From IMG/VR virus record IMGVR_UViG_3300017757_000001: DNA of 64,000 bases, one strand, 5' to 3'. This stretch comes from a virus. The notes under the pieces are model-generated. The model saw only the letters and a list, made by a program, of their open reading frames with translations. It was not told where the DNA came from and did no database searches. Of the stretch, positions 15,560 through 57,835 are shown one piece after another. A program made the position numbers and the translations under genes. Positions within the stretch are counted from its first letter, which is position 1; every line of letters begins with the position of its first letter.

Positions 15560-16765
15560 TTATCTTAAAATAGTAAGATGTCCTGATTTTTGGTAAATTT
15601 CTGGGGAGTTAAATTTTCTAGCATAAAAACTGTAAACATAAACTCCATCTACTACATAGGAGGGACCTCCTTGCATACTACCATCCCAATAAGGATATGA
15701 GCCATAATCATCACCATAACCCTCAAAAACTAAACCACCCCATCTATTATAGATCTTAAACTCTACATCAACCCAGCAATTTAAATCAAGGATAATTTGC
15801 CAAATATCATTAAACCCATCATTATTTGGTGTTAATACATTAGGTATAAAAATACTCCAAGGCCAACATTCATCTATTATTAATTCATTACAAGGTAAAT
15901 TAGTATCACAATCTACTTCAATAATTTGAGTAATAGTATCTGTTAAAAAAACATATTCTAAAACTTCAATCTCTAAAGTATCTGCGATATATTCAACGAC
16001 AGTGTCTATTTCATATATATTGACATACTCTATGAGTGTATCGGTTATATACACGTATTCTTGCATTATAATGGTATCTATTTGCGTTTGAATAATAGTA
16101 TCTGGTGGAAGTTCTATATATAAAGTATCTGTAATATATTCTACAATTGTATCAGGTTCACATTCATTATAACAAACTGCTATTCTATTATCATCTATAT
16201 TAATATCAGGGTATGTCTGTGTCTGATTAAAACTATTACCAACAGTCCATCCGTTATCTGGAAAATCATCATAACCTGCAGTTTGAGAAAGATTAATCTG
16301 CCATATTACTACTTCCCAACAATACCCTTCAATAGGAGTAGCTAAAATACACTCCCAACTAAATGGTGGATTTATTTCAATAGTTGCAGTTGTACCAGTT
16401 TCCCAACCACCCCAATTTGTAGAAACTGCAAAACTCCAACCAGGATGGAAGGTTGCTGAAGTACAATCTGTATTTTCTCCTAAATCTTGTCCAGTTATTT
16501 CATCTACATAATGAATGCCAAAAACAAGGCTGGTTATATTTTCATTATTATTTACAGAACTAGATCCATTATCATCACAACTATTACCATCCCACTGTGT
16601 GTACTCATTACAGCCGCAGCTTTCAGCATTAATAAATTCAACTACAAATGAGTGAGTATCATCTGTTGTAGCAGGTGGTGTTTGACTTACAAGTTCTAAG
16701 TTACACGTTTGGGAATATGTAGTGTAAGACATAGTGGTTATTAAAACCAAAAATAATTTTTTCAT
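15560..16765 (-). CDS. Secreted protein with T9SS type B sorting (gliding-motility-associated, CHU_C) C-terminal domain
   Basis: Sec signal MKKLFLVLITTMSYTTYSQ; Cys-rich domain; DT-rich linker; CTD IFIPNVLTPNNDGFNDIW...FKIYNRWGGLVF...WDG...DGVYVY...GHLTILR. Confidence 0.85.
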   Translation of the reverse strand: MKKLFLVLITTMSYTTYSQTCNLELVSQTPPATTDDTHSFVVEFINAESCGCNEYTQWDGNSCDDNGSSSVNNNENITSLVFGIHYVDEITGQDLGENTDCTSATFHPGWSFAVSTNWGGWETGTTATIEINPPFSWECILATPIEGYCWEVVIWQINLSQTAGYDDFPDNGWTVGNSFNQTQTYPDINIDDNRIAVCYNECEPDTIVEYITDTLYIELPPDTIIQTQIDTIIMQEYVYITDTLIEYVNIYEIDTVVEYIADTLEIEVLEYVFLTDTITQIIEVDCDTNLPCNELIIDECWPWSIFIPNVLTPNNDGFNDIWQIILDLNCWVDVEFKIYNRWGGLVFEGYGDDYGSYPYWDGSMQGGPSYVVDGVYVYSFYARKFNSPEIYQKSGHLTILR

Positions 16766-16817
16766 TAAGGGGAAGTAAGGGGGGAGGGAATAACGTTTTA
16801 TCCCTTATACATATGGG

Positions 16818-16894
16818 TAGGCAAGAAGAGACTTGAACTCTCATGTAACCAATTACTCTTTCTACAAGGTATAAGCTTGAGGAGATACATGCCT
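16818..16894 (-). tRNA. Atypical D-armless tRNA-like RNA, anticodon UAU (Ile)
   Basis: Acceptor AGGCATG/CTTGCCT-A; T arm GAGAG-TTCAAGT-CTCTT; anticodon arm CAAG-CTTATAC-CTTG; only 8 nt in place of the D arm; long variable region with a GTAAT/GTTAC hairpin; 6 nt downstream of tRNA-Arg. Confidence 0.6.
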
Positions 16895-16900
16895 ATGTAG

Positions 16901-27535: not shown

Positions 27536-27759
27536 TTTTTTGATTTTGGTTAATAATTAATTTTATACTTTTGGGAAAAACGTAGAGGCCTCTACTATTT
27601 GTTTTAAAAACGAATCACCATTTTCTCGTGGTGTGCAGTATACATATACGCTTTTTTCCAAAAACATAGGGTAAACATACGATGATTAAATCTGCTATCC
27701 ACACTATACTGAAAGAACTTCATAGTTGTGAATAATTCGTTGTTCACTACGCAATTATC

Positions 27760-27975
27760 CTACAATTCATTTGGATCATCTAAATCCTTCATTCTCTTTA
27801 ATTTATTACGTGTTTTAGTGCGTTCACGCTCAATTTTATCATCTGGTATGTCATTCACAATATGACCACAATTTAAACACTTATAAATTGAAGTTTTCAT
27901 ACAAAACGTTATATCAGGCGAACCACAAGCCAAGCAAAAGGGTTCTTCGGGAATTTCATCAATTTTAATTTTCAT
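27760..27975 (-). CDS. Zn-ribbon protein
   Basis: CLACGS...CLNCGH. Confidence 0.65.
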   Translation of the reverse strand: MKIKIDEIPEEPFCLACGSPDITFCMKTSIYKCLNCGHIVNDIPDDKIERERTKTRNKLKRMKDLDDPNEL

Positions 27976-28808: not shown

Positions 28809-28861
28809 AACTGTTTTTGTTTATAATATACAACCTATATTTTACTTATCCTAATTATATT

Positions 28862-29100
28862 ATTACCTCCAACCACCGAGGTTTTGACGACATGACCTCT
28901 TTTTACCGTTTGCTAGAGTGCCTTATTAGGCAGCCATCGCTAATTCAACTTGTTCGCCAGTTGTTACGTTGACCTTCCTTTTACCCTTATCACCCTGTCA
29001 AATCCGATCACCCCCATGCTTTAAATATTTTTTAGTGGAGGTGGAGGGAATCGAACCCTCGTCCAAAAGTGTAGCTAATAAAAGTACTAGCGGTCATTTA
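28862..29100 (-). ncRNA. ssrA: Circularly permuted (two-piece) tmRNA
   Basis: Acceptor piece ...GGACGAGGGTTCGATTCCCTCCACCTCCA (ends 29036) lies upstream of the 5' piece GGGGGTGATCGGATTTGAC (starts 29015); G3.U70 pair; tag GEQVELAMAA** at 28958-28923; outer ends approximate. Confidence 0.9.
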
Positions 29101-29106
29101 TAATTA

Positions 29107-29514
29107 TTAATATTTTTCTGCTTCTAATACCTCTTCATCAGATGGCTCATAATCATCCATATCACCAAATTCATTTCTATAGAACTCATCTTCTTCAGCT
29201 TGTTTAGCAGCTATTTCTTCATCTTTAGCTAAATCATCTTTCCAAGCAATTGGAGCTAGTAATCCACCATTTTCAATTACAGACCATATTCTTTCTTTCC
29301 ATAAATTCATATGAACACCTTCTACAGTACATTCAAAACCTAATTTTTCAGTAAGTTTAGCTACTTTATCTAAAAATGCTGCTGTTAGCATATCAAATTC
29401 ACCTTTTATAGGGAAGTTTTTACCATACTCATCTGTTCCATTTGTATTATTTTCATACATTTCTTTAATATCTAACCAATCTGAGGTTAATATTGATTTT
29501 TTTGCTTTCGCCAT
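29107..29514 (-). CDS. Hypothetical protein with acidic C-terminus
   Basis: ORF track. Confidence 0.55.
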   Translation of the reverse strand: MAKAKKSILTSDWLDIKEMYENNTNGTDEYGKNFPIKGEFDMLTAAFLDKVAKLTEKLGFECTVEGVHMNLWKERIWSVIENGGLLAPIAWKDDLAKDEEIAAKQAEEDEFYRNEFGDMDDYEPSDEEVLEAEKY

Positions 29515-31282: not shown

Positions 31283-31750
31283 TTAAAAGCCCCCATGATC
31301 TGCATCACTAAATTTAATTAATTTATTAAAACAATTCATATTCAACATTTTATTTCGTTTCTTATCACCCATTTGATCCATTAATTTAATACGCATATGA
31401 TTGCGTACTATATCATGAATAACATACACATCACCACCTAGATCGTTAATTAAGTCTTCATTATCCAATACAATTTGAGCTGATACTTTTTCATGGCCAT
31501 AATGTGTAATATGTCCCTTTATAGGATGAGTTCCAGCAGTAACATCTTTACCAATATCATGAAATATAGCTGCTAGTAATAAATCAATATCATCAAATTT
31601 CTCTAACCTACTAAATACTACACTAGTATGAGTTAAAACATCACCCTCAGGATGAAAATCTCTCCTTTGGTCAAAATTACTAAGGTTTAAAATTCTTAAT
31701 CTTAAATCCTTAGGAAACTTACTAATTATTTTTAAAAATCTTTTATTCAT
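31283..31750 (-). CDS. HD-domain phosphatase, homologous to the C-terminal domain of multifunctional CCA enzymes
   Basis: Q..DFHPEGDVLTHT, AAIFHDIGK, HYGHE, HM, AD; start MNKRF overlaps the upstream stop (TAATG). Confidence 0.8.
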   Translation of the reverse strand: MNKRFLKIISKFPKDLRLRILNLSNFDQRRDFHPEGDVLTHTSVVFSRLEKFDDIDLLLAAIFHDIGKDVTAGTHPIKGHITHYGHEKVSAQIVLDNEDLINDLGGDVYVIHDIVRNHMRIKLMDQMGDKKRNKMLNMNCFNKLIKFSDADHGGF

Positions 31751-32469
31751 TAGTGTTTTGTTGTGGGCATTAACCACATTCCATCTTTAAATATTACTTC
31801 CATCAAACCAGGAACTGTATCTATTGTTCTTAATGATCTTATAGTATCATGTTTCATCATTTTACTAACTTCTTCTCTTATTCTTTCTTGTGAAACTACT
31901 TCTTCTAATTTATCTAATAAATCAAGTTGCTTCATTGCATCACTTAATTCTTTACATATTTTAAAATCTTTAGTAACACTAAATCTTAAGGCTCTTAGTA
32001 ATCTTAAAGGATCATCCATTAAAGTAACCATTGGATCTAATGGAGTTCTTAATATTTTATCTTCTAAATCTTTTAATCCCCCAAATAGATCAACTAATTG
32101 ACCATCTTCAGTTTTACATAAAGCATTTACAGTAAAATCTCTTCTTACCATATCATCTTCAAATGAACCTAACTCTAATATTGGCTTTCTAGTTCCAGGG
32201 ATAACACCTATTTCCTTTCTAGCCATTACAAAATCAGCAACTAAACCTTCATGTTGGTGTCCTTTAGGAAACATAGCTCTAACAGTAAAACAATCTTTAG
32301 TTTTAAGAAATATTTTAAAACCTTCTTGTTTAAGAAAATCTAACATCTTCTCCCAACCTTCATCTACTGATAAAGTAAAATCATCTAGTTCAACAGTAAA
32401 ATCTATATCTTTTGTGTGGAGTCCTAACAACTCATCCCTAACACACCCACCTACTTCAAATAGTTTCAT
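31750..32469 (-). CDS. cca: tRNA nucleotidyltransferase (CCA-adding enzyme, class II head/neck)
   Basis: VGGCVRDELLG..KDIDF, RRDFTVNA, DLFGGLKDL, DDPLRLLRALRF, ERIREE. Confidence 0.9.
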   Translation of the reverse strand: MKLFEVGGCVRDELLGLHTKDIDFTVELDDFTLSVDEGWEKMLDFLKQEGFKIFLKTKDCFTVRAMFPKGHQHEGLVADFVMARKEIGVIPGTRKPILELGSFEDDMVRRDFTVNALCKTEDGQLVDLFGGLKDLEDKILRTPLDPMVTLMDDPLRLLRALRFSVTKDFKICKELSDAMKQLDLLDKLEEVVSQERIREEVSKMMKHDTIRSLRTIDTVPGLMEVIFKDGMWLMPTTKH

Positions 32470-45033: not shown

Positions 45034-45926
45034 AGTTTATTTACTTTAATTATATCATCCAACAATTCTTCTAATCTATCAAAATAAAATCCATTTTCTT
45101 GAACTGCTTTATAATTATTTTCTATTGCTTCTATTCTACTATAATAATCATTTTCATCTAAATTATTTAAAATTTCCAATAATTGGTCTTCATCTTGAAA
45201 TCTAATAATACCTTTTTCATCATAACCCCATTCAGATATATTTTCAGCACCATAATATATAGGTAAAGTTTTGGTAGCAAAACAATCTAAAATCTTATCT
45301 GCAAAATAATTATTTTCTTTTTTACTTTCAATAGCTACATGAAACATAGTATTTCTATCCCATACTTCTTTTTTACCTTCACCTTCAATAGGATTACCAT
45401 ACTTTGTAATTTTTTCTTCAAAATAACCTGGTCTTTGTCCTCTAGGATCAAAATCTTTTAGTGTTTTATACCATTTATGAGGTATAGTAATTTTATCATC
45501 TAATGCTAATACTCTTTGTCTTAATTTATGACCTTCAAGTATCTCTAATACACCACTTAAAAATGTTACTTCAAAATTTCTATTATTAATATCTTTATTT
45601 TCCCAACTTTCAATATATGGTCTATCTAAATTTGTTTCTCCATGAACAAATAATAAACCATTTTCACAATGTTGTTGAATTAATTCCCATTGGGATAATA
45701 TAAGACTAAAATGTTGTTTAATTGATATTGTATAATTACATAAATTAAAGATTTCATTAGGTTCATTTAGAATAATAATATTAACTGGATTAATGCTTAA
45801 TTCTTCTTGAGTAGCAGGCCAATCACAAAATAATGTAATAGGTTTATCTTTATATTTTTCACAGTTTACATCTATGAAAAATTCCATTCTTTCTTTTGCT
45901 ATTGAGTTTTTAGTAAATATTTTCAT
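45030..45926 (-). CDS. GT10-like (fucosyltransferase) glycosyltransferase
   Basis: FHVAIES...YFADKILDCF...LPIYYG. Confidence 0.7.
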   Translation of the reverse strand: MKIFTKNSIAKERMEFFIDVNCEKYKDKPITLFCDWPATQEELSINPVNIIILNEPNEIFNLCNYTISIKQHFSLILSQWELIQQHCENGLLFVHGETNLDRPYIESWENKDINNRNFEVTFLSGVLEILEGHKLRQRVLALDDKITIPHKWYKTLKDFDPRGQRPGYFEEKITKYGNPIEGEGKKEVWDRNTMFHVAIESKKENNYFADKILDCFATKTLPIYYGAENISEWGYDEKGIIRFQDEDQLLEILNNLDENDYYSRIEAIENNYKAVQENGFYFDRLEELLDDIIKVNKL

Positions 45927-47173
45927 TTAGGTACTTTTGTTATTTCACACACTGGGAAAGGAGTTATAAATGATACACCTTTATTATTAATAATGTCTTT
46001 ATTCTTTTTTAATATTTCTTTTTCAAAATTATGGGATAATAATAAATAACTATCTGGTAATTCATTTTCATCTTCTTTAAATACTGGTATATGAGAACCT
46101 GGTGCGTAAGTTCCTATTTTATATGGGTTTACTTCTACAATCTTTTCAATCCATGAACTATCAATTCCCATATAATTTAATAATGTATTACCTTTAACAG
46201 GAGCTCCATATCCCCACACTTTTTTACCTAGTATAAATTTAGAAAATAATAATCTTCTTAATTCAAATTTAATCTTACCAATACTTGCAGCAAACTGTCT
46301 AAATGAATTTAAATTATATTTCTTATCTCTTTTCTTTAATACTTTTGTTCTTTCTGTAATTTTACATTTATTTTTTCTGAATTTACATATTATACTACCA
46401 CTATGAATTTCATCAAAATAAGTATCTTCTAAATGAAGATTATACTTTTTTAATAATGTAGTTAAACTTTTTAAGGTATAATAACATAAATGTTCATGGT
46501 ATATAGTATCAAAATTTAAATTATCAACCATAGCCCCCACATACATGCATTGTGCCACAAATACTCCATCATCTTTTAAACAATAATTAATTCCATTAAT
46601 TACACTGTCTAATTCTTCTAAATGAAAAAATACACCAGATGCATTTATTAATTTAATACTATTGGGTTCTAGTTCATCTTTTACACTTGCTTCATTAAAA
46701 AATTCATTTATAGTATCAATATTTTTCTCTTCAGATAATTTACAGATATTAGTTGCTGATTCAAAATTAATAAGTTTTTTAAACCCTAATTTTTTATATT
46801 GTTCTAATTGTGACCCATCATTACCCCCAATATCTAATATAATATCATTTTCTTTATCTAAATTATAATCATTACTATTTTCTACTGCTAATTTATAAAA
46901 ATGATCAATTAATGTTCTAGTTGTTCCTGATATATAAGAATGATCTAAAAACATTGTTTCTTTTGGTACAAAATAACTTAATTGAAGTAATCCTGGTTTG
47001 TTACAATAAACTAATTGTAAAGGGTATGTAGGTTCTTTTCCACATTCGTTCTTTTTTAAAAAACCATTAGCCCAAGGTTGTTTACCTAAATCCAAAATAA
47101 CTTCATAATCTGTTGTTAATTTGTTTTCACCTAATGAAAATATTTCTTTATTTTTTACCATGATATTTCCCAA
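45923..47173 (-). CDS. NDP-sugar C-methyltransferase
   Basis: LDLGKQPWAN.F, LDIGGNDG, FDTIYHEH, YGAPVKGNTLLNY, PGSHIP. Confidence 0.85.
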   Translation of the reverse strand: MGNIMVKNKEIFSLGENKLTTDYEVILDLGKQPWANGFLKKNECGKEPTYPLQLVYCNKPGLLQLSYFVPKETMFLDHSYISGTTRTLIDHFYKLAVENSNDYNLDKENDIILDIGGNDGSQLEQYKKLGFKKLINFESATNICKLSEEKNIDTINEFFNEASVKDELEPNSIKLINASGVFFHLEELDSVINGINYCLKDDGVFVAQCMYVGAMVDNLNFDTIYHEHLCYYTLKSLTTLLKKYNLHLEDTYFDEIHSGSIICKFRKNKCKITERTKVLKKRDKKYNLNSFRQFAASIGKIKFELRRLLFSKFILGKKVWGYGAPVKGNTLLNYMGIDSSWIEKIVEVNPYKIGTYAPGSHIPVFKEDENELPDSYLLLSHNFEKEILKKNKDIINNKGVSFITPFPVCEITKVPK

Positions 47174-49020: not shown

Positions 49021-49494
49021 TTATTTTTCATTTGATGGTAGAGCGCCTATGTGAGATAAAGCATCCATATAATCTTTTTCTTTATAACTTTTAACATTTT
49101 TCATATCCATCCTCCACTTATAAAATTCTCCTGGTTTGTTTGGGATTGGGAATTTTTCTTTTTCTTCTTCCTTAACAGATATTGCTTTTACAGCTCCCCA
49201 AGACCAATCATCTTTATTTTTACCATTAGCAAATACCATTCCTTTATCATGAATATTTACAGTTGAAGGCATCCAAACCAAACCGTTTTCATCTTCAACC
49301 ATTAATGCTTTATATAAATTAGGTAGGGTTTCCATTTGTTCTTCAAAAAATGGCTCACCAACTTTCATTAATGAGTTAGTAGTAAAACCACAACCATAAC
49401 ACATATAAATTTTGATTTTATCATTTACTTCTTGTACGTAACAAGCGTCACTCCCACACCTACTACAAAATGTTAAACTATCATTTTTAGACAT
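49021..49494 (-). CDS. Zn-ribbon hypothetical protein
   Basis: CSRCGS...CYGCG. Confidence 0.6.
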   Translation of the reverse strand: MSKNDSLTFCSRCGSDACYVQEVNDKIKIYMCYGCGFTTNSLMKVGEPFFEEQMETLPNLYKALMVEDENGLVWMPSTVNIHDKGMVFANGKNKDDWSWGAVKAISVKEEEKEKFPIPNKPGEFYKWRMDMKNVKSYKEKDYMDALSHIGALPSNEK

Positions 49495-50809
49495 TTACTT
49501 TTGATTTTTTATATTTTTTAGGTAATTTAATTTTTTTAACTCCATTTAAATTTAAATCCATTTTTTTAGGTAAATTGGGAATATTTTCATTAAAAAATAT
49601 ATCAATTTGTTTTTTCATACCTTTAAAATTAAATTTAGATCTACTTATAAATCCTTGTCTCTTACCTTTTACCAACCATGATTTATAATTTTTAACAACA
49701 TCTTGCATAGCTTGGCTAACATGAGCATGATCAGGAGCAAACCAAGAACTTTCAGGAATTAACATATCTTTTATCACTGATGATGGATCTAATTTATCTA
49801 ATTTTCCTCCTACTAATACTGTATGTTCTTTATTTAAAAAATCTAACTGCCCCGACCAAGCACTAGCTATAATTGGTTTATTTGTTAAGCTAAATTCTAA
49901 TAAAGGTCTTCCAAATCCTTCACCTCTTGTAAGAGAAATAAAACATTTTACTTTTGGGTGATTATATAATTCATTTACATCTGTATTACTTAAATCTCCA
50001 TGTAAAAGATATATTTTTGGTAATTTAGTAGCATTAGGTATTGATTCTTTTATAATATTAATCCTATTAAGAACTTCCCTTCTATCAGTATAACTTGCTG
50101 CTGCTGTTGTTGTTTTTAAAATTAATGCCGGTGGATTATTTTTATTTTTCCAAACTTCATAAAAAGCTTTTACTAATAATCCCATATTTTTTCTATCATG
50201 TCCTAATCCACCTTGCATCCAATGTCCAACACTTAAAAATGCAAATTTTTCAGGGATTGAGTTAATAGATTCTAAAAGATTTTTATTTAAGAATTCTTTT
50301 TCAGGTAAAACCTTATATAAGTCTACATCAGCTCCTTCAAATATAACTTTAATAGGTTTTTCTAATTTAAGTGGTTTATTACTACCATCAGGCATATTAG
50401 CTTGATATTGAGTTGTTTCTAATACATTTTTAGAATGTTCAGAAGAAGTAACTATAATATCCATTCTATTCATTCCTTCAATCCATTGAGGAGCACAAGC
50501 TGTAGTTTCAATACCTGCTGTTAAACCTATATTATATTTTCCAACAGATTGAAATTCATTAGGTACAGTTGACATACACCAAATATCTGGTTGTTCTGTT
50601 AAAGGGCCTTGATGAATATATTTATTTAAAAATCCCCACTTTTCTTCATGGTCTTTTATAAAATTAAATGGAGTATTTCCCCATCTTTGTGGAATAATTT
50701 TAACATCATATCTATCTAATTCTATTACTGCTTTTATAAAATCTCTAGCTCTTGCTCCATAACCCGAGTAGGTGTCTATTGGACAACTTATTGCAAATGT
50801 ATTTTTCAT
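49487..50809 (-). CDS. GT4 (GT-B) glycosyltransferase
   Basis: SGYG, RKN...LVKAF, RGEGFGRPLLE, SGQLDF. Confidence 0.85.
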   Translation of the reverse strand: MKNTFAISCPIDTYSGYGARARDFIKAVIELDRYDVKIIPQRWGNTPFNFIKDHEEKWGFLNKYIHQGPLTEQPDIWCMSTVPNEFQSVGKYNIGLTAGIETTACAPQWIEGMNRMDIIVTSSEHSKNVLETTQYQANMPDGSNKPLKLEKPIKVIFEGADVDLYKVLPEKEFLNKNLLESINSIPEKFAFLSVGHWMQGGLGHDRKNMGLLVKAFYEVWKNKNNPPALILKTTTAAASYTDRREVLNRINIIKESIPNATKLPKIYLLHGDLSNTDVNELYNHPKVKCFISLTRGEGFGRPLLEFSLTNKPIIASAWSGQLDFLNKEHTVLVGGKLDKLDPSSVIKDMLIPESSWFAPDHAHVSQAMQDVVKNYKSWLVKGKRQGFISRSKFNFKGMKKQIDIFFNENIPNLPKKMDLNLNGVKKIKLPKKYKKSKVNV

Positions 50810-52246
50810 CTAATAAATTAATTTATGTTTTAAAACTCTTTTTTCAAAATCTGTATCAGCTAAGAATTCAAATTGTTCTCTAGGTTCCCAAGTACTAAAT
50901 AATTCATCAACTCCATCGATAATTCTTTTTCCCATTTGCTTTGAGGTAAACCCAGCTTCTTCACTTTCAGCCCATTTTTTTCCAGCTAATCCTTTTTGTT
51001 TTCTTTCTTCTTTGGATAAATTATATAACTCCATAATTTTATCTGCAGCATCCTCAAAAGAACAATGATCTTCAAATATATAAGGTGTTGGAAGTGATCC
51101 AACCATTGTTCTTACAGAAGGATATACAGGTAATACCCACTCACCATGTTCTTTGTAAGTACCCCTATGATTTGAAGGTACATCATTATTATTAACATAC
51201 CATTTTCCATTTTCATCAACAAAACGCATTTGGTCTTGCATTCCACCAGTTACATTAGCTATAATAGGAGTTCCTGATAGTAAACTTTCAGTTAATGCTA
51301 ATCCCCACCCTTCAGCATTTGATAGTAATATAGTACCATCTACTGAATTATATAAAAAATTCATATGTTCAATTGGGTATTTTTGCTCACTAATGATGAT
51401 ATTATTATCTATTCCTTCGTAACCATCTAAATATTCTAAAATAGCATGAAGATCTGTTCCAGCATTGTCTCTAGAATTACAATGTAATACTAATCTACAT
51501 TTATTAGCTTCTTCAGGTGTTAATTTACTACAAAATAATTTCCATGCTAATATAGTATTAGGAATTTGTTTTCTTCTAATATTTCTAGAATTAAATAATA
51601 TTGAAAAATCAACTTCTTCTTTATTGTAAAGATGTTTTCTAAATTCTCCTAATTCAATATCATTTTCATCTAATGCTTTAAAATAATCATTATTTAAACC
51701 ATGAGGGATATATTTAAATATTTTATTTTTCCCTTCTTTTCCTAATACTACTTTATTAATATGGTTAGTTTGTTTAGAAATTCCAAATAAAGCATCACAA
51801 GATTGATAAAATTCTTTATTATATTCAGGTGCAGGATAATCATCCCAAATGTTTAGGTATATTATAGGAATATGTTTTCTAATTTCATTCTCCATATCAA
51901 ATACCCATTTAAAATATCTAGGATCAGTAATTAAAAATATTGCATCTATTTGTTCCCTAGCCATTACTTGTCTTAAAACATCAGGATTCCCATAACCATC
52001 TACAGGATACAAAATAACCGAAGCATCTTCTACTCCTGATTGTTTTGCCGTATCTGCTGATATGTCTTGGATTTTGCCTTTTTCAGGATGCTCTATAGAA
52101 CCTGCTAATTGAACCCAATTATAATGATGACAAGTATTAAGTATTGTTTCTCTACCTACTTGTGCTACACCAGAATGTGTTCTGATATCATCTGTTAATA
52201 AAAGTATTTTTTTCCTTTTATCTTTTTTAATGTAACCTTCTTTCAT
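50810..52246 (-). CDS. GT4 (GT-B) glycosyltransferase
   Basis: SGVA, IPHG, RNIRRKQ, EGWGLALTE, TGGMQD. Confidence 0.85.
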   Translation of the reverse strand: MKEGYIKKDKRKKILLLTDDIRTHSGVAQVGRETILNTCHHYNWVQLAGSIEHPEKGKIQDISADTAKQSGVEDASVILYPVDGYGNPDVLRQVMAREQIDAIFLITDPRYFKWVFDMENEIRKHIPIIYLNIWDDYPAPEYNKEFYQSCDALFGISKQTNHINKVVLGKEGKNKIFKYIPHGLNNDYFKALDENDIELGEFRKHLYNKEEVDFSILFNSRNIRRKQIPNTILAWKLFCSKLTPEEANKCRLVLHCNSRDNAGTDLHAILEYLDGYEGIDNNIIISEQKYPIEHMNFLYNSVDGTILLSNAEGWGLALTESLLSGTPIIANVTGGMQDQMRFVDENGKWYVNNNDVPSNHRGTYKEHGEWVLPVYPSVRTMVGSLPTPYIFEDHCSFEDAADKIMELYNLSKEERKQKGLAGKKWAESEEAGFTSKQMGKRIIDGVDELFSTWEPREQFEFLADTDFEKRVLKHKLIY

Positions 52247-56200: not shown

Positions 56201-57835
56201 TTAATACATACCAGGCATTACTGCATCTGGTGTTGGATCTTTTTTATCTGGGTGAGGTACTACAACACATTCTGTTAAAAGTATAGTTCCTGCTACAGAT
56301 GCAGCATTTTCTAATGCGGTTCTTGTTACTTTTGATGGATCTATAATACCATCTTCTTTCATATCAACAACTTTACCTTTCTTAAGATTATATCCTGACC
56401 AGCAATCATTTCCAGATTCTACTAATTCATATCTTCCTAACATTTGAGCTTGAACTGAATCCCATCCAGCATTAATTAAAATTTGTTCAAATGGTTTACC
56501 ACATGCTTTATATACAATACCTGATCCAATACCTTCATCATGATCAATAGATTCACGTGCATATAATAATGCTGTACCTCCACCAGGAACAATACCTTCT
56601 TCTAATGCTGCTTTTGTTGCATTTAAAGCATCATCAACTCTATCTTTTGTTTCTTTCATAGCTGTTTCAGTATGACCACCAACATGAATAATTGAAACAC
56701 CTCCTACCATTTTAGCTAAACGATTTTGAAGTTGTTCTCTTTCAAATGGTGATTTTGCATTATCAGCTTGGGTTTGTAATTCTTCACATCTTTTTTCAAT
56801 TTCTGTTGTTCCACCTTTACCATCAATAATAGTTGTTTTATCTTTTGAAATAGTAACAGCACGTGCTTCACCAAACCAATCCCAAGAAAATTTATCTAAT
56901 TTCATTCCCTTGTTCTTATCATAAACTACACCTCCAGTTAAAGCTGCTATATCTTCCATTATTAATTTTCTTCTATCTCCAAAGTCAGGAGCTTTAATAG
57001 CAGCTACTTTAATAGTACCTCTACTTTTATTTACAATTAAAGTTGCTAGAGCTTCATTATCAATATCTTCAGCTATAATCAATAAAGATTTTCCTGTTTT
57101 TGAAACACCTTCTAAAATTGGCAATAATTCTTTCACTGTTGTAAATCTTGTATCAGCTATTAAAATATAAGGTTCATCTAATGTACAAGTCATAGTATTA
57201 TTATCAGTAACAAAGAAATGGGATTTATATCCTCTATCAATTTGCATTCCTTCTACTGTTTCTAAGTATGTGTCACCTGATTTAGATTCTTCAATATGAA
57301 CAACTCCATCTTTACCTACTTTTTCAATTGCAGTTGAAATTAATTTACCTACTTCTGGGTCATTATTAGCTGATATTGTAGCTACTTGTTCTAATTGATC
57401 TTCATTAGATATATCTTCAGAAATTTTATTTCTTAAAGAATCTACTACAGTTTTTACAGCACTATCAATACCTCTTTTTATTTCAACAGCATTAGCCCCA
57501 TTATCTAAATGTTGTAATCCTTCCTTTACCATAGCACGAGCTAATAAAGTTGATGTTGTTGTACCATCACCAGCTTTATCTGCAGTAGCTGTTGCGGCTG
57601 ATTTTACTAAAGCCGCACCTAATTCTTTGATATTACCATCTACATTTATATGTTTTGCTACTGATACCCCATCTTTAGTTGAAACGGGTTCTTGTCCTGG
57701 GTAGTGAATAACTACATTTCTACCATTTGGTCCTAGAGTTGATACTACTGCATCTGCTAAAGTATCAATACCTTCCATCATTTCTTTTCTTGCTGATGGT
57801 CCTAATTTTATTTGTTTTCTTAAGTCGTGTGCCAT
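56201..57835 (-). CDS. groL: Chaperonin GroEL
   Basis: TLGPNGRNV, KDGVSVA, GDGTTT, KAPDFGDRRK, GIVPGGG, GIIDP. Confidence 0.97.
   Translation of the reverse strand: MAHDLRKQIKLGPSARKEMMEGIDTLADAVVSTLGPNGRNVVIHYPGQEPVSTKDGVSVAKHINVDGNIKELGAALVKSAATATADKAGDGTTTSTLLARAMVKEGLQHLDNGANAVEIKRGIDSAVKTVVDSLRNKISEDISNEDQLEQVATISANNDPEVGKLISTAIEKVGKDGVVHIEESKSGDTYLETVEGMQIDRGYKSHFFVTDNNTMTCTLDEPYILIADTRFTTVKELLPILEGVSKTGKSLLIIAEDIDNEALATLIVNKSRGTIKVAAIKAPDFGDRRKLIMEDIAALTGGVVYDKNKGMKLDKFSWDWFGEARAVTISKDKTTIIDGKGGTTEIEKRCEELQTQADNAKSPFEREQLQNRLAKMVGGVSIIHVGGHTETAMKETKDRVDDALNATKAALEEGIVPGGGTALLYARESIDHDEGIGSGIVYKACGKPFEQILINAGWDSVQAQMLGRYELVESGNDCWSGYNLKKGKVVDMKEDGIIDPSKVTRTALENAASVAGTILLTECVVVPHPDKKDPTPDAVMPGMY

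What the first reader, a model, noticed from the sequence alone, without database searches (positions are those of the whole stretch)
28862..29100. Phage-encoded, circularly permuted two-piece tmRNA with a Bacteroidota-style tag and no pk1
Seen: on the minus strand the 3' acceptor half (GGAC-GAGGG-TTCGATT-CCCTC-CACCTCC-A, ending 29036) precedes a 20-nt spacer and then the 5' half (GGGGGTGATCGGATTTGAC, 29015). The acceptor stem has the alanine G3.U70 pair. The tag reads GEQVELAMAA, with tandem TAA stops in a TGCC/GGCA hairpin. Inter-piece pairings are visible: AGGGTG/CACTTT, GTAAAAG/CTTTTAT, and GGTCA/TGACC just before the resume codon, where pk1 normally sits. CCA is not encoded (ACTA). Known: two-piece tmRNAs are described in alphaproteobacteria, some beta-proteobacteria and cyanobacteria, and some mitochondria; Bacteroidota tags start GE and end LAA. 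Inference: an independent, very compact (about 240 nt) permutation in a Bacteroidota phage, possibly evading host anti-tmRNA nucleases or redirecting tagged proteins.
Basis: partly seen in the sequence, partly recalled or inferred. Interest (0 to 1): 0.88.

Follow-up and report, generated by a model that had tools for sequence, protein, structure and literature searches.

The report
Compact two-piece tmRNA of Bacteroidota phages
A large marine phage that most likely infects Bacteroidota carries a real, circularly permuted ribosome-rescue RNA (tmRNA) belonging to a large, undescribed marine family that lacks the usual first pseudoknot and copies the host's degradation tag.

Summary
ARAGORN and Rfam RF04321 (71.8 bits, cut-off 47) both call a permuted tmRNA at 28835-29126 (-).

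It is not a one-off. It gave 86 distinct complete relatives.
- On their alignment, 93.9% of the proposed pairs form, against 38-49% for shifted controls. 24 of 45 pairs change on both sides.
- The reading frame always starts at GGC and almost always ends in AMAA. Tags are either 10 or 35-37 residues long.
- Only 9-15 nt separate the last inter-piece helix from the resume codon, so pk1 is absent.

A Bacteroidota host is supported by a type IX secretion domain, by GroEL similarity and by host-like tags. None of 151 sampled Bacteroidota genomes has a permuted tmRNA above the cut-off. 38 of 41 have the standard form.

The tRNA-like domain is usually closest to Bacteroidota one-piece tmRNAs. An independent permutation is therefore likely but not proven.

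Phage two-piece tmRNAs as such are already published. The cultured Maribacter phage Panino carries a related one that has not been recognised as permuted. Expression, processing and tagging are untested.

The parts
28835..29126 (-). Whole permuted tmRNA gene as called by ARAGORN (acceptor piece, spacer, coding piece)
   Evidence: tmRNA*, tag GEQVELAMAA**. (RF04321, 71.8 bits, over 28926-29083).
29036..29096 (-). Acceptor piece. It holds the 3' strands of P2c (29096-29092), P2b (29084-29077) and P2a (29071-29066), the T arm (29060-29044), the acceptor 3' strand (29043-29037) and the discriminator A (29036). CCA is not encoded.
   Evidence: T stem: 100% paired, 2 pairs with changes on both sides. 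Acceptor: 100% paired, one U-A/C-G switch. The 5' end is inferred from the start of the covarying helix P2c.
29016..29035 (-). 20-nt intervening spacer. It is inferred to be removed by RNase Z-type cleavage after the discriminator and by RNase P before G1.
   Evidence: It varies in length and sequence among relatives (alignment A1, columns 70-93). Processing is inferred, not shown.
28866..29015 (-). Coding piece. It holds the acceptor 5' strand (29015-29009), the D-loop analogue (29008-28997), the 5' strands of P2a (28996-28991), P2b (28985-28978) and P2c (28974-28970), an 11-nt linker (28969-28959), the tag frame, the stop hairpin, the pseudoknot and a G-rich tail (28877-28866).
28923..28958 (-). 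Tag reading frame: resume codon GGC (28958-28956), 10 codons, then TAA TAA (28928-28923).
   Evidence: The frame is kept in all relatives, with tags of 10 or 35-37 residues. A relative has an in-frame 26-codon insertion. In the short tags the third codon position varies most.
28919..28932 (-). Helix-5-like hairpin with the stop codons in its loop
   Evidence: helix 6: 93.9% paired, and all 4 pairs show a change on both sides in at least one relative.
28878..28909 (-). H-type pseudoknot after the tag. Stem 1 is 28909-28905 with 28891-28887. Stem 2 is 28899-28895 with 28882-28878. The loop between them is conserved.
   Evidence: helices 7-9. Stem 1 is 97% paired, and one pair occurs as U-G, C-G and U-A. 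Stem 2 shows G-C/A-U switches in all pairs; its paired percentage is lowered by MAFFT gap placement.
31283..32469 (-). Split CCA-adding enzyme: head domain ORF 31750-32469 and HD domain ORF 31283-31777. It could mature the CCA-less tmRNA and the two CCA-less phage tRNAs. It is an accessory, not a fixed partner.
   Evidence: PF01743 at 69 bits, PF01966, phrog_24229 at 208 bits. (the tRNAs lack CCA). (absent from four related viral records, two of which carry the tmRNA).

Best explanation
This is a functional phage gene for a two-piece tmRNA.

Inferred maturation. The primary transcript reads acceptor piece, spacer, coding piece. The host tRNA-maturation enzymes cut it: an RNase Z-type cleavage after the discriminator A, as for CCA-less tRNA genes, and RNase P before G1 of the coding piece. 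CCA is then added by the host enzyme or by the phage's own CCA-adding enzyme.

Structure (shown by covariation). The two RNAs stay together through the 7-bp acceptor stem and a three-part P2 helix.

Inferred action. Host alanyl-tRNA synthetase charges the RNA, recognising G3.U70. Host SmpB and EF-Tu deliver it to ribosomes stalled on broken mRNAs, which are presumably frequent in infected cells. Translation resumes at GGC, 9-15 nt after helix P2c. Helix P2c takes the place that pk1 normally occupies. The nascent protein receives a host-type degradation tag ending in AMAA.

Likely benefit. Ribosomes are freed and truncated proteins are recycled for phage production.

Likely origin. The gene most probably derives from a Bacteroidota one-piece ssrA through a separate permutation event.
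For: Identity:
- ARAGORN tmRNA*.
- RF04321 at 71.8 bits against a cut-off of 47.

Selection on structure (86 distinct relatives, alignment A1):
- 93.9% of cells are paired, against 38-49% when partners are slid.
- 24 of 45 pairs and 360 cells change on both sides; 0 of 500 shuffles reach this.
- P2c occurs in at least 8 fully complementary versions.
- An MFE fold of the window copy alone recovers the T arm, the acceptor stem, P2b and P2c.

Selection on coding:
- Every complete relative keeps an open frame from GGC. Nearly all end in AMAA.
- Two length classes occur, with an in-frame 26-codon indel.
- In short tags the third-position entropy is 6.2, against 3.5 and 2.5 for the first and second positions.

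Host match:
- Bacteroidota tags and the GGC resume codon.
- 3 of 4 host tmRNA genes lack an encoded CCA.
- CHU_C domain; GroEL.

Dependence on host SmpB:
- No SmpB in the window.
- None in a 170.8-kb viral record that carries the family.

Origin:
- 0 of 151 sampled Bacteroidota genomes have a permuted tmRNA over the cut-off. 38 of 41 have the standard form.
- 41 of 51 distinct phage tRNA-like domains are closest to Bacteroidota tmRNAs. Mean best identity is 77.5%, against 69.4% for beta and 62.5% for cyano.
- Alpha-type genes have a different, non-canonical T loop.
Against: - There is no expression, processing, aminoacylation or tagging data.
- In E. coli pk1 matters for tmRNA function (my own knowledge), so a pk1-less tmRNA might work poorly or differently.
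- The long tags evolve fast at the protein level (1475 synonymous against 4121 non-synonymous codon differences). Their role as degrons is therefore uncertain.
- Close protein-level relatives of this phage lack the gene at the syntenic place. A 100% complete 163.6-kb relative lacks it altogether. It is therefore dispensable.
- For origin, the window's own tRNA-like domain is as close to the beta type as to Bacteroidota, and about 70 nt of conserved RNA cannot resolve ancestry firmly.
Confidence: 0.78

Rival explanations
1. It is a functional two-piece tmRNA, but not an independent permutation. The gene would descend from the known beta-proteobacterial (or another known) two-piece lineage. It would have reached Bacteroidota phages by horizontal transfer, lost pk1, and adapted its tag and resume codon to the new host's proteases.
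For: - The best Rfam subtype model is beta_tmRNA (54 bits, E 1.5e-15).
- Other viral permuted tmRNAs with a Gly resume codon (L006, L007) pass the beta_tmRNA cut-off at 114 bits.
- 10 of 51 phage tRNA-like domains, the window's among them, are marginally closer to beta-type genes.
- A host switch of a phage carrying a two-piece tmRNA has been proposed before (PMC9004378).
Against: - 54 bits is well under the family cut-off of 84.
- Cellular two-piece genes score 118-174 bits on RF04321, against 55-72 for this family.
- Most family members share features with Bacteroidota genes and not with beta genes: the D-loop spacing, a U in place of the usual C before GAC in the D-loop analogue, P2a, the context of the resume codon, and tag codons down to nucleotide level.
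Confidence: 0.17
2. The RNA is a decoy or re-programmer rather than a rescue factor. It would compete with host tmRNA for SmpB and stalled ribosomes. The effect would be to blunt a host response or to attach a different peptide, especially in the forms with 35-37-residue tags.
For: - A tag-less phage tmRNA-like RNA (mycobacteriophage DS6A) is reported to inhibit endogenous tmRNA in E. coli (cited in PMC11915505).
- The family has no SmpB of its own, so it must compete for the host's.
- The long tags are far longer than host tags.
Against: - The short-tag forms, including the window's, closely copy the host degron.
- The frame, the stop hairpin and the alanine identity pair are all conserved, which a pure decoy would not need.
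Confidence: 0.04
3. It is not a working gene. It would be a remnant of a host ssrA fragment picked up at an integration site, a rearranged pseudogene, or an assembly artefact.
For: - Prophages often integrate into ssrA and carry fragments of it (PMC9004378, PMC11590407).
- ARAGORN gives false tmRNA calls next to tRNA clusters, for example a spurious 1141-nt call in L206.
Against: - Both halves, the tag and the downstream structure are complete.
- The same order is found in over 119 independent contigs.
- Compensatory changes occur in every helix.
- No integrase context was seen among the window ORFs that I scanned; most window ORFs were not scanned.
Confidence: 0.01

Closest known systems
Two-piece (circularly permuted) tmRNAs of Alphaproteobacteria, some Betaproteobacteria and marine cyanobacteria (Rfam RF01849, RF01850, RF01851, merged in RF04321)
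   Same: - The gene order is the same: acceptor piece, intervening sequence, coding piece.
- The two pieces are held by the acceptor stem and P2.
- pk3 and pk4 are lost, and the tag frame is kept.
- The family passes the RF04321 cut-off.
- Cyanobacterial genes also lack an encoded CCA.
   Different: - Known forms typically keep PK1 and PK2 (PMC3985003). Here pk1 is missing and P2c ends 9-15 nt before the resume codon.
- The family is below the cut-off of every subtype model.
- It scores 55-72 bits on RF04321, where cellular genes score 118-174.
- The resume codon is Gly (GGC), not Ala.
- The carrier is a phage of a phylum whose sampled cells have one-piece tmRNA.
Published phage-encoded two-piece tmRNAs (Methylophilales phage Melnitz, pelagimyophages, cyanophages; PMC9004378)
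   Same: They are marine phages of the large myovirus type that carry a permuted ssrA without SmpB. The same hypotheses about rescue of hijacked ribosomes and recycling of amino acids apply.
   Different: - Those genes group with the alpha, beta or cyano lineages of their (former) hosts, according to that paper's tree.
- This family has a Bacteroidota-like tRNA-like domain and tag.
- No glutamine riboswitch reached the Rfam gathering score in the window.
- No deposited phage in the August 2025 collection matches it beyond the T arm.
One-piece tmRNA of Bacteroidota (tags GENNYALAA, GEYTYAMAA, GNTQLAMAA)
   Same: - GGC resume codon with a similar upstream context.
- Tags that start with G and end in A-L/M-A-A.
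- U in place of the usual C before GAC in the D-loop analogue.
- The P2a sequence is identical in several members.
- CCA is often not encoded.
   Different: - The host genes are colinear and 350-400 nt long, and they match the full-length standard model RF00023, which includes pk1-pk4 (my own knowledge).
- The phage gene is permuted, totals about 200 nt when mature, and has one pseudoknot.
tmRNA gene of Maribacter phage Panino (PP540027, 27557-27889), with the metagenomic type L003/L004
   Same: - It comes from a cultured Flavobacteriia phage.
- ARAGORN calls it permuted, and RF04321 scores 63.9 bits.
- CTA follows the discriminator, and a Gly resume codon is preceded by ACT.
   Different: - It is a different subfamily, with a 16-residue tag that does not end in AMAA and other P2 and downstream elements.
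- The record and paper (PMC11590407) list it only as tmRNA and discuss it as a possible integration aid. They do not describe it as a two-piece form.
One-piece tmRNA of Cellulophaga phages phi38:1, phi40:1 and Calle (PMC8776804)
   Same: It is a tmRNA gene in phages of Flavobacteriia. It shares 37 nt of T arm and acceptor at 94.6% identity.
   Different: It has the standard gene order, is 360 nt long and has a 22-residue tag starting with Ala.

Membership tests
tmRNA, permuted / two-piece form (Rfam RF04321) | Score at or above the curated gathering threshold of the covariance model | tested here: met
   71.8 bits against 47. Relatives score 55-121 bits.
tmRNA, permuted / two-piece form (Rfam RF04321) | tRNA-like domain: 7-bp acceptor stem with G3.U70, a canonical T arm, and no anticodon arm | tested here: met
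   The acceptor and T stems are 100% paired in 86 sequences, and the G.U pair is invariant.
tmRNA, permuted / two-piece form (Rfam RF04321) | Circularly permuted gene order, with the 3' acceptor half upstream of the 5' half | tested here: met
   The same order is found in over 119 metagenome contigs.
tmRNA, permuted / two-piece form (Rfam RF04321) | Tag reading frame with a defined resume codon, a hydrophobic end (A-A) and an in-frame stop | tested here: met
tmRNA, permuted / two-piece form (Rfam RF04321) | Inter-piece helix P2 supported by covariation | tested here: met
   (P2a 95.5% and P2b 98.1% paired, 9 pairs changed on both sides). (P2c in at least 8 complementary versions).
tmRNA, permuted / two-piece form (Rfam RF04321) | pk1 between P2 and the resume codon (typical of known two-piece forms, PMC3985003) | tested here: not met
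   The pk1 hairpin of the models is deleted in the alignments. Only 9-15 nt separate P2c from GGC.
tmRNA, permuted / two-piece form (Rfam RF04321) | Pseudoknot (pk2) downstream of the tag and helix 5 | tested here: met
   helices 6-9. The covariation is real but weaker than in P2. Homology to pk2 is inferred from position only.
tmRNA, permuted / two-piece form (Rfam RF04321) | Processing into two RNAs, CCA addition, charging with alanine, SmpB-dependent tagging | not testable with these tools
beta_tmRNA (RF01850) | Score at or above the gathering threshold of 84 bits | tested here: not met
   54 bits.
alpha_tmRNA (RF01849) | Alpha-type tRNA-like domain with a reduced, non-canonical T loop | tested here: not met
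   The window has a canonical T loop. Alpha genes fetched here do not. Any alpha match scored below the 54-bit beta match, which was the best match kept for that clan.
Phage of Bacteroidota (host assignment) | Markers restricted to, or typical of, the phylum | tested here: met
   - CHU_C type IX secretion sorting domain, 54.2 bits against a cut-off of 27.
- GroEL is closest to Flavobacterium and Bacteroides phages.
- The tag and resume codon are host-like.
The assignment is indirect: there is no CRISPR spacer match and no isolate.

The most novel reading that the evidence does not exclude
This would be a fourth, independent invention of the two-piece tmRNA. It would have been made from a Flavobacteriia-type one-piece ssrA and be carried only by phages, across a large and abundant marine family. 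It would also be the first natural tag-encoding tmRNA architecture that does without pk1. A plain inter-piece helix sits about 11 nt before the resume codon instead, giving a minimal tmRNA of about 200 nt. One branch has expanded the tag to 35-37 residues, perhaps for a purpose other than simple degradation.
Probability: 0.5. Interest if true: 0.72.

Novelty: new variant of a known kind. Interest (0 to 1): 0.6.

Why it matters
Two-piece tmRNAs are the textbook example of a circularly permuted RNA gene, and three bacterial lineages plus mitochondria were thought to cover them.

This work adds a distinct, abundant family.
- It is borne by phages of a phylum whose sampled cells use the one-piece form.
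- It gives a natural experiment on what a tmRNA minimally needs: no pk1, a single pseudoknot, and about 200 nt in total.
- It provides more than 80 natural variants for studies of how the resume codon is selected.
- It shows that phages of Bacteroidota, major degraders of algal-bloom carbon, invest in ribosome rescue.
- Its tags could serve as a host-prediction marker for uncultured marine phages.

A practical point concerns annotation. ARAGORN misses or mis-reads the tag in part of the family, and GenBank records do not flag the permutation (for example phage Panino).

Tried and rejected
I did not pursue it by other means.
- One viral scan used a gap set one base too narrow and found nothing. 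That was my error, not a biological negative.
- The pattern scan of 185,579 species genomes gave 14 hits, none of them a tmRNA. I estimate about 8 hits would arise by chance. No cellular copy was found, but only exact pattern matches could be seen.
- Synteny: 11 viral loci encode relatives of the upstream ORF (29107-29514), and none has a tmRNA beside it. Of five whole records, one has the gene elsewhere.
- A fixed pairing of the tmRNA with the CCA-adding enzyme is rejected. The enzyme is absent from four related records.
- The GCUAG/CUAGC pairing between the acceptor-piece loop and the region after the stop hairpin is possible in the window. Its 3' partner is not conserved in A1, so I rejected it.
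- An all-against-all column-pair scan for further helices was swamped by substitutions shared within subfamilies. It is uninformative. No additional consecutive helix was evident, but the output was cut.
- A sigma-70-type promoter and intrinsic-terminator scan around the gene found nothing relevant. Bacteroidota promoters are not covered by that tool.
- Flavobacterium phage immuto and Bacteroides phage DAC16, the closest GroEL relatives, have no permuted tmRNA.
- One alphaproteobacterial genome (G204) was flagged as unpublished.

Full report
**1. The observation**

- A T arm and the 3' acceptor strand end at the discriminator A (29036).
- CTA stands in place of CCA.
- A 20-nt spacer follows.
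- The 5' acceptor strand starts at 29015. It pairs over 7 bp and includes G3.U70.

ARAGORN reports a permuted tmRNA at 28835-29126 (-) with the tag GEQVELAMAA and two stop codons. Rfam's tmRNA_permuted model (RF04321) matches 28926-29083 at 71.8 bits, against a gathering score of 47. Among the older subtype models the best is beta_tmRNA at 54 bits, below its cut-off of 84. In both alignments the hairpin that stands for pk1 is deleted.

**2. What carries it**

The window is 26-34% G+C. All genes examined lie on the minus strand. It encodes:
- a baseplate wedge protein, a family B DNA polymerase and GroEL;
- a split CCA-adding enzyme 2.2 kb upstream of the tmRNA;
- two tRNAs.

No deposited phage is similar at the DNA level, and no whole genome is held.

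Three things point to a Bacteroidota host.
- ORF 15560-16765 ends in a CHU_C type IX secretion sorting domain (54 bits, cut-off 27).
- GroEL is closest to that of Flavobacterium phage immuto (58%) and of Bacteroides phages (48%).
- The tag is host-like (see section 5).

**3. It is a family, not a singleton**

A pattern taken from the window found relatives in IMG/VR.

A broader pattern spanned the junction: T loop, acceptor strand, CTA, spacer, 5' half. From all loci I extracted 88 distinct complete genes. I aligned 86 of them (A1). L083 and L138 are nearly identical to the window.

No record in the phage collection of August 2025 matches any of three family members beyond the T arm.

**4. Structure**

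I wrote the structure from the window copy and counted it on the MAFFT alignment, which is blind to structure.
- 93.9% of cells form standard pairs, against 38-49% when the partners are slid by 1-3 columns.
- 24 of 45 pairs and 360 cells change on both sides. No shuffle out of 500 reaches these values.

- P2a is 95.5% paired.
- P2b is 98.1% paired.
- P2c occurs in at least eight fully complementary versions when read without the alignment.

The hairpin that presents the stop codons also covaries.

Its first stem is 97% paired and shows U-G, C-G and U-A at one position. Its second stem switches between G-C and A-U.

The distance from P2c to the resume codon is 9-15 nt, most often 11. That leaves no room for pk1. 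A review states that two-piece tmRNAs typically keep PK1 and PK2 (PMC3985003). A comparative study found pk1 in nearly all tmRNAs (PMC1168896).

A thermodynamic fold of the window copy alone recovers the T arm, the acceptor stem, P2b and P2c.

**5. The tag**

Every complete relative keeps an open frame from GGC. Nearly all end in AMAA.
- 44 distinct genes have 10-residue tags.
- 42 have 35-37 residues.

A relative of the window differs by an in-frame insertion of 26 codons. In the short tags the third codon position is the most variable. The long tags change quickly at the protein level but never lose the frame.

Standard tmRNAs fetched from Bacteroidota genomes carry GENNYALAA, GEYTYAMAA, GDRNFALAA, GESNYALAA, GNTQLAMAA and GNTQYAMAA. 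All have a Gly resume codon. One phage subfamily resembles GNTQLAMAA down to the codons. The 'Bacteroidota-style tag' is thus confirmed by test, not by memory.

**6. CCA and partners**

- Three of four host tmRNA genes lack an encoded CCA.
- Both phage tRNAs lack it too; one of them carries the same CTA.
- The marine cyanobacterial two-piece genes fetched here also lack it, so this trait is not unique.

The phage's CCA-adding enzyme fits the need. It is absent, however, from four related viral records, two of which carry the tmRNA.

SmpB is absent from the window and from a 170.8-kb viral record, estimated 80% complete, that carries the family. The RNA must therefore use host SmpB.

**7. Origin**

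- None of 151 sampled Bacteroidota genomes has a permuted tmRNA over the cut-off.
- 38 of 41 have the standard gene.

I fetched two-piece genes of Alphaproteobacteria, the beta group and cyanobacteria. I then compared the tRNA-like domain, about 70 nt.
- Alpha genes have a different T loop.
- Of 51 distinct phage domains, 41 are closest to Bacteroidota one-piece genes. Mean best identity is 77.5%, against 69.4% for beta and 62.5% for cyano.
- Ten, including the window's, are marginally closer to beta.

Several Bacteroidota genes share with most phage copies the D-loop spacing, a U in place of the usual C before GAC, the whole P2a helix and the T stem.

Together with the resume codon and the tag, this favours a separate permutation of a Bacteroidota-type gene. 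The region is short and functionally constrained, so I put this at roughly 60-65%.

**8. What was already known**

- Phage two-piece tmRNAs are published. A survey found 53 unique ones, 50 from marine or aquatic phages, and assigned them to the alpha, beta/gamma and cyano lineages (PMC9004378).
- The current tmRNA database lists 79 phage sequences (PMC11915505). The supplementary files held as text did not contain my search terms, so I could not see which phages these are.
- Flavobacterial phage papers mention tmRNA genes only in passing (PMC8776804, PMC11590407).

I found that the gene of Maribacter phage Panino is itself permuted (ARAGORN tmRNA*; RF04321 at 63.9 bits). It has CTA after the discriminator and a Gly resume codon. 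It is of the same kind as the metagenomic type L003/L004. That paper treats it as a possible integration aid.

In the papers I could search and read, permuted tmRNAs in Bacteroidota phages are thus deposited but not described as such.

**9. Mechanism and verdict**

Shown:
- a conserved, structured, permuted tmRNA gene with a protected tag frame;
- the absence of pk1;
- one downstream pseudoknot;
- a host-like tag;
- no SmpB in the DNA examined.

Inferred:
- processing by RNase Z-type and RNase P activities;
- CCA addition and alanylation;
- use of host SmpB and EF-Tu;
- rescue of ribosomes stalled in infected cells, with degradation of the tagged products;
- P2c acting in place of pk1.

Untested:
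- the 5' end of the acceptor piece. An A/T-rich motif abuts P2c in most subfamilies; it could be a promoter or a processing site;
- the purpose of the long tags.

The finding is real. It is a new variant of a known kind: of clear interest to tmRNA and marine-phage specialists, but not a new category.

Noticed in passing
L059, L174, L025 and about 40 other loci (tag frames listed): About half of the family encodes tags of 35-37 residues in place of 10. They share the same first four and last four residues. The middle part is conserved but fast-evolving and contains its own small hairpin. Such long tags are unusual for tmRNA, and their role is unknown.
   Followed up: partly
L251 (Maribacter phage Panino, PP540027) 27557-27889; also L003 333-516 and L004 468-651: This is a second type of permuted, CCA-less tmRNA with a Gly resume codon, found in a cultured Flavobacteriia phage and in viral contigs. 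The GenBank record says only 'transfer-messenger RNA SsrA'. ARAGORN misses the L003/L004 copies altogether.
   Followed up: partly
window 31283-32469 (-): The CCA-adding enzyme is split into two overlapping ORFs, the nucleotidyltransferase head and the HD domain. Both phage tRNAs (16900-17081) and the tmRNA lack an encoded CCA.
   Followed up: partly
window 15560-16765 (-): A phage-encoded protein carries a CHU_C type IX secretion sorting domain (PF13585, 54 bits). It is a useful host marker and odd cargo for a phage.
   Followed up: partly
window 16800-16900 (-): Directly downstream of tRNA-Arg lies a tRNA-like stretch with a T-arm-like hairpin. Neither ARAGORN nor Rfam calls it.
   Followed up: no
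about 12 nt upstream of helix P2c in most relatives (window 29097-29108): A conserved A/T-rich motif, a TATA-like run of about 10 nt, abuts the first base of the acceptor piece in most subfamilies. It is missing where the gene follows an ORF directly. It could be a phage promoter or an RNA processing signal.
   Followed up: partly
G488:C8:15518-15713 and G481:C11:308475-308704: Two cyanobacterial genomes hold a second, weaker permuted-tmRNA match (66-70 bits) besides their own gene. These may be prophage or phage-derived copies.
   Followed up: no
window 56201-57835 (-), 49487-52246 (-), 45923-47173 (-): The window also holds a phage GroEL, two adjacent glycosyltransferases and a C-methyltransferase. 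These are auxiliary genes typical of large phages.
   Followed up: no
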